A stretch of DNA of 17,922 bases from a virus. The position numbers and the translations under genes were made by a program. The stretch lies in the UHGV virus genome UHGV-0157346. The stretch is one strand, 5' to 3'. The notes beneath the pieces were generated by a model. It had not been told where the DNA came from. It searched no databases and saw only the letters and a list, made by a program, of their open reading frames with translations. Shown here piece after piece: positions 17,807 to 17,922 of the stretch (positions are counted from its first letter, which is position 1; each line of letters begins with the position of its first letter).

Positions 17807-17864
17807 AGATCGGAAGAGCGTCGTGTAGGGAAAGAGTGTAGATCTCGGTGGTCGCCGTATCATT
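17807..17864. other. Illumina TruSeq universal adapter (reverse complement): sequencing or assembly contamination
   Basis: Exact 58-nt match to AGATCGGAAGAGCGTCGTGTAGGGAAAGAGTGTAGATCTCGGTGGTCGCCGTATCATT; the opposite strand translates to the known artefact peptide NDTATTEIYTLSLHDALPI. Confidence 0.97.
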
Positions 17865-17922
17865 AAAAAAATGAAAAAGTACTGAAAAAGCGGATGAGAG
17901 GTGCAAGAGAGACAACTAAAGG

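What the first reader, a model, noticed from the sequence alone, without database searches (positions are those of the whole stretch)
17807..17922. Illumina adapter contamination at the contig end creates a false ybhC C-terminus
Positions 17807-17864 are an exact reverse complement of the 58-nt Illumina TruSeq universal adapter. Host ybhC diverges from its expected sequence exactly at this point (...AVALRTD then RSEERRVGKECRSRWSPYH, a recurrent artefact peptide in databases). The 58 nt after the adapter (17865-17922) are of unknown origin. Any ORF or junction drawn from 17807 onward is artefactual.
Basis: seen in the sequence. Interest (0 to 1): 0.55.

Follow-up and report, generated by a model that had tools for sequence, protein, structure and literature searches.

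The report
Sequencing adapter junk at contig end
The last 116 bases of this contig are not biology but an Illumina library adapter followed by sequencer read-through noise, which cuts the E. coli ybhC gene short and gives it a fake 19-residue tail that thousands of other database proteins also carry.

Summary
Window 17807-17864 matches the reverse complement of the 58-nt TruSeq universal adapter at 58 of 58 bases; shuffled sequence gave no match.

Similarity to 5,417 of 5,426 complete E. coli genomes stops exactly at 17806. That is the boundary after ybhC codon 236.

The called 255-aa protein is therefore 236 real YbhC residues plus RSEERRVGKECRSRWSPYH. Its stop codon is the last adapter T plus two As. 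Intact YbhC is 427 aa.

The same 19-mer ends 119 of the 120 best-scoring proteins among at least 7,522 unrelated database protein clusters.

The chimeric protein occurs on one contig in one sample: ENA ERZ773457 NODE_2056, coverage 5.2.

In over 340 adapter occurrences in other assemblies, the adapter lies at a contig end, points outward, and is followed by about ten As and then unique A-rich junk. The As are best explained as the complement of the T10 spacer on flow-cell oligos. The rest is base-calling with no template.

The window's tail fits this pattern and matches nothing searched. This is an ordinary, well-known artefact: trim from 17807.

The parts
17099..17806 (+). Genuine 5' part of E. 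coli ybhC, codons 1-236, ending ...AVALRTD
   Evidence: 99.7-99.8% identical to ybhC of complete E. coli genomes up to 17806. The translation is identical to the first 236 aa of the reference ybhC translated from locus L001 (RefSeq product WP_001407057.1).
17807..17864 (+). Reverse complement of the 58-nt Illumina TruSeq universal (P5-side, no i5 index) adapter. 17807 'A' pairs with the adapter's 3' T overhang. 17836-17864 is the reverse complement of P5.
   Evidence: 58/58 exact match. One match in the window and 0 in 200 shuffles. The first 33 nt are used as the read-2 trimming sequence in PMC7070063.
17865..17874 (+). AAAAAAATGA: complement of the T10 spacer at the 5' end of the surface-grafted P5 oligo, with the last positions miscalled (A7 instead of A10)
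   Evidence: In 122 other assemblies positions 1-10 after the adapter are 97-100% A, dropping to 76% at position 11. The same step follows rc-P7 and rc-P5 in IMG/VR, where the commonest tail length is exactly 10. T10-P5 and T10-P7 surface oligo designs are given in PMC11123353 and PMC13584795. The assignment to the spacer is an inference.
17875..17922 (+). Base-calling noise beyond the end of the template. It is A/G-rich: over the whole 58-nt tail (17865-17922) A is 53% and purines are 81%.
   Evidence: No match in E. coli genomes or phages. In plasmids only a 22-nt hit with E = 0.1. A 38-nt core has no exact match in IMG/VR contigs. No 58-mer of the host part of the window is as purine-rich. 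Comparator tails have the same A-rich decay and are all different from each other (0 of 3,240 pairs alike).
17099..17866 (+). Artefactual chimeric ORF of 255 aa: 236 aa of YbhC plus the adapter-encoded RSEERRVGKECRSRWSPYH. The stop codon TAA (17864-17866) is the last adapter T plus two As of the tail.
   Evidence: It was called as a gene in the source assembly. It scores 22.8 bits on Pectinesterase, below the gathering score of 27, against 52 bits for intact YbhC.
17595..17915 (-). Mechanical 106-aa ORF whose TTG start lies in the noise tail and which reads through the adapter (…NDTATTEIYTLSLHDALPI…); spurious

Best explanation
The contig end is a technical artefact of untrimmed Illumina reads.

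A library fragment from an E. coli lambdoid-prophage/ybhC region ended at window base 17806 and was shorter than the read length. It then copied the complement of the TruSeq universal adapter (17807-17864), next the T10 spacer that tethers the P5 oligo to the flow cell (read as As, from 17865), and finally produced base calls with no template (to 17922).

The reads were not adapter-trimmed. At about 5x coverage the assembler (SPAdes-style contig name) kept this dead-end path as the contig terminus. Gene calling then produced a complete-looking 255-aa 'protein': YbhC residues 1-236 fused to the adapter-encoded RSEERRVGKECRSRWSPYH and closed by a TAA made of the adapter's last T plus two As.

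Shown: adapter identity, exact breakpoint, false C-terminus, uniqueness of the junction, recurrence of the peptide, and the general adapter, roughly ten As, then junk pattern at contig ends.

Inferred: that it was read 2, that the As are the T10 spacer, that the rest is no-template noise, and that the assembler kept the tip because of low coverage.
For: - Adapter identity: 58/58 exact match, none expected by chance.
- Breakpoint: homology to 5,417 E. coli genomes ends at 17806. The reference YbhC continues for 191 more residues.
- Source: ENA ERZ773457 NODE_2056_length_17922_cov_5.22, so the window is the whole contig and the adapter lies at its physical end. The exact chimeric protein is on 1 contig in 1 sample.
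- Comparators in species-representative genomes: 122 of 127 occurrences of the same 58-mer lie within 202 nt of a contig end and point outward. All have different upstream sequence and different tails. A is 97-100% at positions 1-10, then 76%, then about 65%.
- Independent prediction met: the same ten-A step follows rc-P7 and rc-P5 at contig ends in IMG/VR, and the modal tail length is exactly 10.
- Spacer design: T10-P5 and T10-P7 surface oligos are described in PMC11123353 and PMC13584795.
- Tail: it matches nothing in three annotated collections, and a 38-nt core has no exact match in IMG/VR.
- Peptide: at least 7,522 protein clusters match the 19-mer, and 119 of the top 120 end exactly with it on unrelated N-terminal parts.
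- Literature: Illumina adapter contamination of assemblies is described as well documented (PMC13182109).
Against: - The window's tail starts with 7 As followed by TG, not a clean A10. Only 9 of 95 comparator tails have an initial A-run under 10, so this read was noisier than most.
- The papers found for the T10 spacer describe Illumina-compatible surfaces made by others, not Illumina's own flow cells.
- Raw reads, quality values and the instrument model could not be inspected.
- The BLAST low-complexity filter may have masked part of the A-rich tail, which weakens the 'no match' results somewhat.
Confidence: 0.97

Rival explanations
1. The adapter part is an artefact, but the last 48-58 nt (17865-17922) are genuine DNA from some other molecule in the library (another organism, PhiX, host) joined by a chimeric ligation or an assembly misjoin.
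For: The tail is not a clean poly-A or poly-G run and has only 7 leading As. Five of 127 comparator occurrences are internal to contigs, and three of these are followed by ordinary-looking sequence after about 20 nt. Misjoins after adapters therefore do occur.
Against: There is no match in 28 Gb of E. coli genomes or in the phage collection; the plasmid collection gave only a 22-nt hit with E = 0.1, and a 38-nt core has no exact match in IMG/VR. At 81% purine it exceeds every 58-mer of the host part of the window. That value lies within the range of comparator junk tails, 19 of 72 of which are at least 81% purine. The 5' end of the universal adapter is the physical end of a library molecule, so nothing should be ligated there (established library design).
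Confidence: 0.025
2. The sequence is biologically real: the strain carries an insertion in ybhC that happens to equal the adapter (for example engineered DNA or a laboratory construct).
For: None beyond its presence in the contig.
Against: It is a 58/58 match to a synthetic oligonucleotide, in the orientation and position expected of read-through: at the contig terminus, followed by As. The same arrangement occurs next to hundreds of unrelated genes. It is absent from this locus in 5,426 E. coli genomes. The junction is unique to one contig.
Confidence: 0.002

Closest known systems
Illumina TruSeq adapter read-through contamination of de novo assemblies (what NCBI VecScreen/UniVec and FCS-adaptor screen for)
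   Same: An exact synthetic adapter sequence at a contig terminus, pointing outward and starting where homology to the real locus stops. The arrangement is the same in 122 of 127 occurrences in GTDB species-representative genomes and in over 220 occurrences in IMG/VR contigs. PMC13182109 calls such contamination well documented.
   Different: Nothing essential. This instance keeps the full 58-nt adapter plus a 58-nt post-adapter tail, and its poly-A start is shorter than usual (A7 against the typical A10-A12).
Adapter-encoded spurious peptides in protein databases (RSEERRVGKECRSRWSPYH in this frame; NDTATTEIYTLSLHDALPI on the other strand)
   Same: The false YbhC C-terminus is this exact 19-mer. 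At least 7,522 protein clusters share it and 119 of the 120 best end with it. The opposite-strand ORF contains the forward-frame peptide.
   Different: Here the N-terminal 236 aa are a recognisable real protein, so the damage can be measured. 191 residues are lost, and the Pectinesterase score falls from 52 to 22.8 bits, below the threshold of 27.
Oxford Nanopore adapter/barcode contamination in GenBank (PMC13182109)
   Same: Synthetic library oligonucleotides left at the ends of deposited sequences, outside the widely shared genuine backbone.
   Different: A different platform and different oligonucleotides, with no equivalent of the flow-cell T10 read-through tail.

Membership tests
Illumina adapter read-through artefact at a contig end | Exact or near-exact match to a known synthetic adapter oligonucleotide | tested here: met
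   58/58 match to the reverse complement of the TruSeq universal adapter. 0 matches in 200 shuffles. The first 33 nt equal the published read-2 trimming string.
Illumina adapter read-through artefact at a contig end | Homology to the authentic locus ends exactly at the first adapter base | tested here: met
   Alignments to E. coli genomes end at 17806. The base-level alignment confirms it.
Illumina adapter read-through artefact at a contig end | Located at the physical end of the contig, with the adapter in reverse-complement orientation pointing outward | tested here: met
   The window is the whole contig, NODE_2056_length_17922. The geometry is the same in 122 of 127 comparator occurrences.
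Illumina adapter read-through artefact at a contig end | Followed by about 10 As (flow-cell spacer) and then unique, unmatched, A-rich junk | tested here: met
   The tail begins with A7, and A is 53% overall. It matched nothing in the collections searched. Its composition lies within the comparator range. An A-run shorter than 10 is seen in 9 of 95 comparators.
Illumina adapter read-through artefact at a contig end | The junction is not reproduced in independent assemblies | tested here: met
   0 of 5,426 E. coli genomes have it at ybhC. The chimeric protein is found on 1 contig in 1 sample.
Illumina adapter read-through artefact at a contig end | Supported only by read(s) with an insert shorter than the read length and low quality after the adapter | not testable with these tools
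Intact YbhC (pectinesterase-like outer-membrane lipoprotein, 427 aa) | Full-length product with a Pectinesterase domain above Pfam's gathering score | tested here: not met
   The window product is 255 aa and scores 22.8 bits against a cut-off of 27. The reference product is 427 aa and scores 52 bits.
Other library oligonucleotides (TruSeq index adapter, Nextera, P7) | Exact match anywhere in the window | tested here: not met
   Only the P5 and read-1-primer parts of the universal adapter were found. No 10-mer of the adapter occurs elsewhere in the window.

The most novel reading that the evidence does not exclude
The last ~48 nt (17875-17922) are not noise but a real fragment of an unknown molecule joined beyond the adapter. 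That would make the contig end a three-part chimera rather than simple read-through.
Probability: 0.025. Interest if true: 0.03.

Novelty: not a real feature. Interest (0 to 1): 0.04.

Why it matters
There is no biological significance; the value is in data hygiene.

- **This contig:** it should be trimmed at 17806, and the 255-aa "YbhC" should be treated as a 3'-truncated partial gene.
- **Database scale:** the same adapter-encoded 19-mer ends at least 7,522 protein clusters in the searched collection. Such tails can create false C-terminal "motifs", link unrelated proteins in clustering, and push real domains below family thresholds, as happens here (22.8 bits against a cut-off of 27).
- **A practical screening signature:** adapter, then ten As, then unique junk, with TAA formed by the adapter's last T plus AA. 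This signature also explains why the peptide is always C-terminal.

Tried and rejected
- **Tail as real DNA.** blastn of the 58 nt, in the word-size-11 'distant' mode, found nothing in E. coli genomes or phages. In plasmids it found only a 22-nt hit with E = 0.1 to a Pseudoalteromonas plasmid, taken as chance. An exact scan of IMG/VR with a 38-nt core found nothing. This reading was rejected as the main explanation.
- **Other adapters.** The window has no TruSeq index adapter, Nextera adapter or P7.
- **A second artefact at the other contig end.** Window 1-400 matches E. coli genomes from base 1 at 99-100% identity, so the left end is genuine.
- **Peptide search.** I used a tandem duplicate of the peptide instead.
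- **Literature on the peptide.** A search for the string GKECRSRWSPYH found no paper.
- **Metagenome scan not run.** I did not use the metagenome-contig scan. An exact-match scan for a noise sequence would be uninformative whichever way it came out.

Full report
**Observation**

Window 17807-17864 reads AGATCGGAAGAGCGTCGTGTAGGGAAAGAGTGTAGATCTCGGTGGTCGCCGTATCATT. This is the exact reverse complement of the 58-nt TruSeq universal adapter, with 0 mismatches. I supplied the adapter sequence from my own knowledge. As an independent check, its first 33 nt are the string that a published metagenome study passes to cutadapt as the read-2 adapter (PMC7070063).

It is the only match in the window even when 3 mismatches are allowed, and 200 dinucleotide-preserving shuffles gave none. 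There is no i5 index between the P5 part and the read-1 primer part, so the library was of the single-index TruSeq type. This follows from the sequence together with established adapter design. No other Illumina oligonucleotide was found.

**Breakpoint**

Megablast of 16900-17922 against 5,426 complete E. coli genomes found a match in 5,417 of them. The best matches cover query 1-907, which is window 16900-17806, at 99.7-99.8% identity, and nothing beyond. The whole-window search also stops at 17806 in all top hits.

The base-level alignment with strain EC2001 is identical up to ...CGTACTGAT and then unrelated. 17099-17806 is exactly 236 codons, so the adapter starts on a codon boundary.

- The reference product is 427 aa and continues ...AVALRTD-GDQVQINNVNILGRQ....
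- The window product is 255 aa and continues ...AVALRTD-RSEERRVGKECRSRWSPYH and then a stop.
- The stop codon TAA (17864-17866) is the last adapter T plus the first two As of the tail.

As a consequence, the chimeric product scores 22.8 bits on Pfam Pectinesterase, below the cut-off of 27. Intact YbhC scores 52 bits. The source's gene table accordingly lists no Pfam family for this product.

**Origin and uniqueness**

The exact 255-aa product is on record on a single contig of a single sample: ENA ERZ773457, NODE_2056_length_17922_cov_5.223760. The window is therefore the complete contig, from a SPAdes-style metagenome assembly at about 5x k-mer coverage, and the adapter sits at its physical end.

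Adapter plus tail found nothing at ybhC in any complete E. coli genome.

**The 58-nt tail (17865-17922)**

The tail is AAAAAAATGAAAAAGTACTGAAAAAGCGGATGAGAGGTGCAAGAGAGACAACTAAAGG, with A 31, G 16, T 6 and C 5. At 81% purine it exceeds every 58-mer of the host part of the window.

| Collection | Result |
|---|---|
| E. coli genomes | no match |
| phages | no match |
| plasmids | 22-nt hit, E = 0.1, taken as chance |
| IMG/VR contigs (38-nt core, exact) | no match |

To learn what normally follows this adapter, I scanned one genome per prokaryotic species for the 58-mer.

- Of 127 occurrences, 122 lie within 202 nt of a contig end and point outward.
- All 122 have different upstream sequence.
- No two tails are alike beyond the poly-A start (0 of 3,240 pairs).
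- The fraction of A is 0.97-1.00 at positions 1-10 after the adapter. It drops to 0.76 at position 11, holds at roughly 0.6-0.7 through position 20, and decays to a near-random composition by about position 100.

A sharp step at position 10 is what is expected if the polymerase copies a T10 spacer at the 5' end of the surface-grafted flow-cell oligo and then runs out of template. Two papers that build Illumina-compatible surfaces give exactly such oligos, 5'-T10-AATGATACGG... and 5'-T10-CAAGCAGAAG... (PMC11123353; PMC13584795).

This explanation predicts the same step on the P7 side, and I tested that in a second collection. In IMG/VR, rc-P7 was at a contig end in 116 of 122 occurrences and rc-P5 in 106 of 123. 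Both are followed by at least 91% A for ten positions and then a fall. The commonest tail length is exactly 10 nt.

The window's tail fits this pattern in its A fraction (0.53) and purine fraction (0.81); 19 of 72 comparator tails are at least as purine-rich. Its leading A-run is only 7, as in 2 of 95 comparators, and 9 of 95 have runs under 10. That points to a noisy read.

I therefore read 17865-17874 as the partly miscalled spacer complement and 17875-17922 as base calls without a template. This last step is inference, because reads and qualities are not available.

**Recurrence of the peptide**

A query made of two copies of the 19-mer retrieved 7,522 protein clusters with E of 1 or less. 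Only 8,000 candidates were scored, so this is a lower bound. The clusters carry many unrelated Pfam domains.

Of the 120 best, 119 contain the full RSEERRVGKECRSRWSPYH, and in all 119 it is the C-terminus. The TAA formed by the adapter T plus AA explains that. On the opposite strand, a mechanical 106-aa ORF (17595-17915) starts in the noise and contains the forward-frame adapter peptide NDTATTEIYTLSLHDALPI. It is equally spurious.

**Mechanism**

A fragment ending at 17806 was shorter than the read. Read 2 ran through the A-tail/T-overhang junction (17807), the adapter, the spacer and into nothing. The reads were not trimmed. At about 5x coverage the assembler kept the dead-end path, and the gene caller closed the ORF at the adapter-derived TAA.

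The 116 non-genomic bases plus a k-mer overlap imply reads of roughly 140 nt or longer (inference).

**Comparison with what is known**

This is ordinary Illumina adapter contamination. NCBI VecScreen/UniVec and FCS-adaptor exist to catch it, and the literature calls it well documented (PMC13182109). Nothing here is a biological feature.

**Context and side observations**

The rest of the window is a genuine lambdoid prophage early region. It carries a Q antiterminator, NinB, a DnaB-like helicase, an O-like replication protein, cII, cro and cI-like repressors, N, cIII, Kil, Erf, Abc2, Ea22 and integrase. It abuts ybhC, and the left contig end is authentic.

Two things noticed in passing are listed separately: an intein-bearing prophage DnaB helicase, and a 28-nt piece of the same adapter inside fliI of a RefSeq "complete" E. 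coli genome.

Noticed in passing
window 3677-6070 (- strand): A 797-aa prophage DnaB-like replicative helicase whose Walker A motif (...ARPGMGK | ... | TELALK...) is interrupted by an insert of about 335 aa. The insert has Pfam LAGLIDADG_3 and Hom_end hits and PDB sequence hits to the gp41-1 intein, PI-SceI and DnaB mini-inteins. It looks like an intein with a homing endonuclease. It begins with Ala, not Cys or Ser, and ends ...THN|T. From my own knowledge this suggests a class 3 (WCT-type) intein like the mycobacteriophage Bethlehem DnaB intein; I did not test that. Related prophages in complete E. coli genomes match this region.
   Followed up: partly
L002 1501-1528 = NZ_CP123349.1 702311-702338 (E. 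coli AREA_R485, RefSeq complete genome): The first 28 nt of the same adapter (AGATCGGAAGAGCGTCGTGTAGGGAAAG) sit inside fliI and replace about 15 nt of the gene, a net gain of 13 nt. PGAP therefore annotates fliI as a 'frameshifted' pseudogene. It is a second adapter artefact, this time internal to a finished genome.
   Followed up: yes
L003-L122 (genome contigs) and L125-L322 and above (IMG/VR): Full-length P5- and P7-side adapters are common at contig ends of GTDB species-representative genomes, mostly MAGs from a few studies (e.g. DRR0930xx, SRR179xxxx), and of IMG/VR viral contigs. Some contigs carry adapters at both ends. A few occurrences are internal, one of them directly before a run of Ns in a 4.6-Mb Entotheonella scaffold (L051).
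   Followed up: partly
window 1-16964: Outside the artefact, the window is a lambdoid prophage early/immunity/recombination region ending in a 356-aa lambda-type integrase (15894-16964) next to ybhC. No complete E. coli genome covers more than 64% of it in one place, so it is mosaic in the way typical of lambdoid phages.
   Followed up: partly
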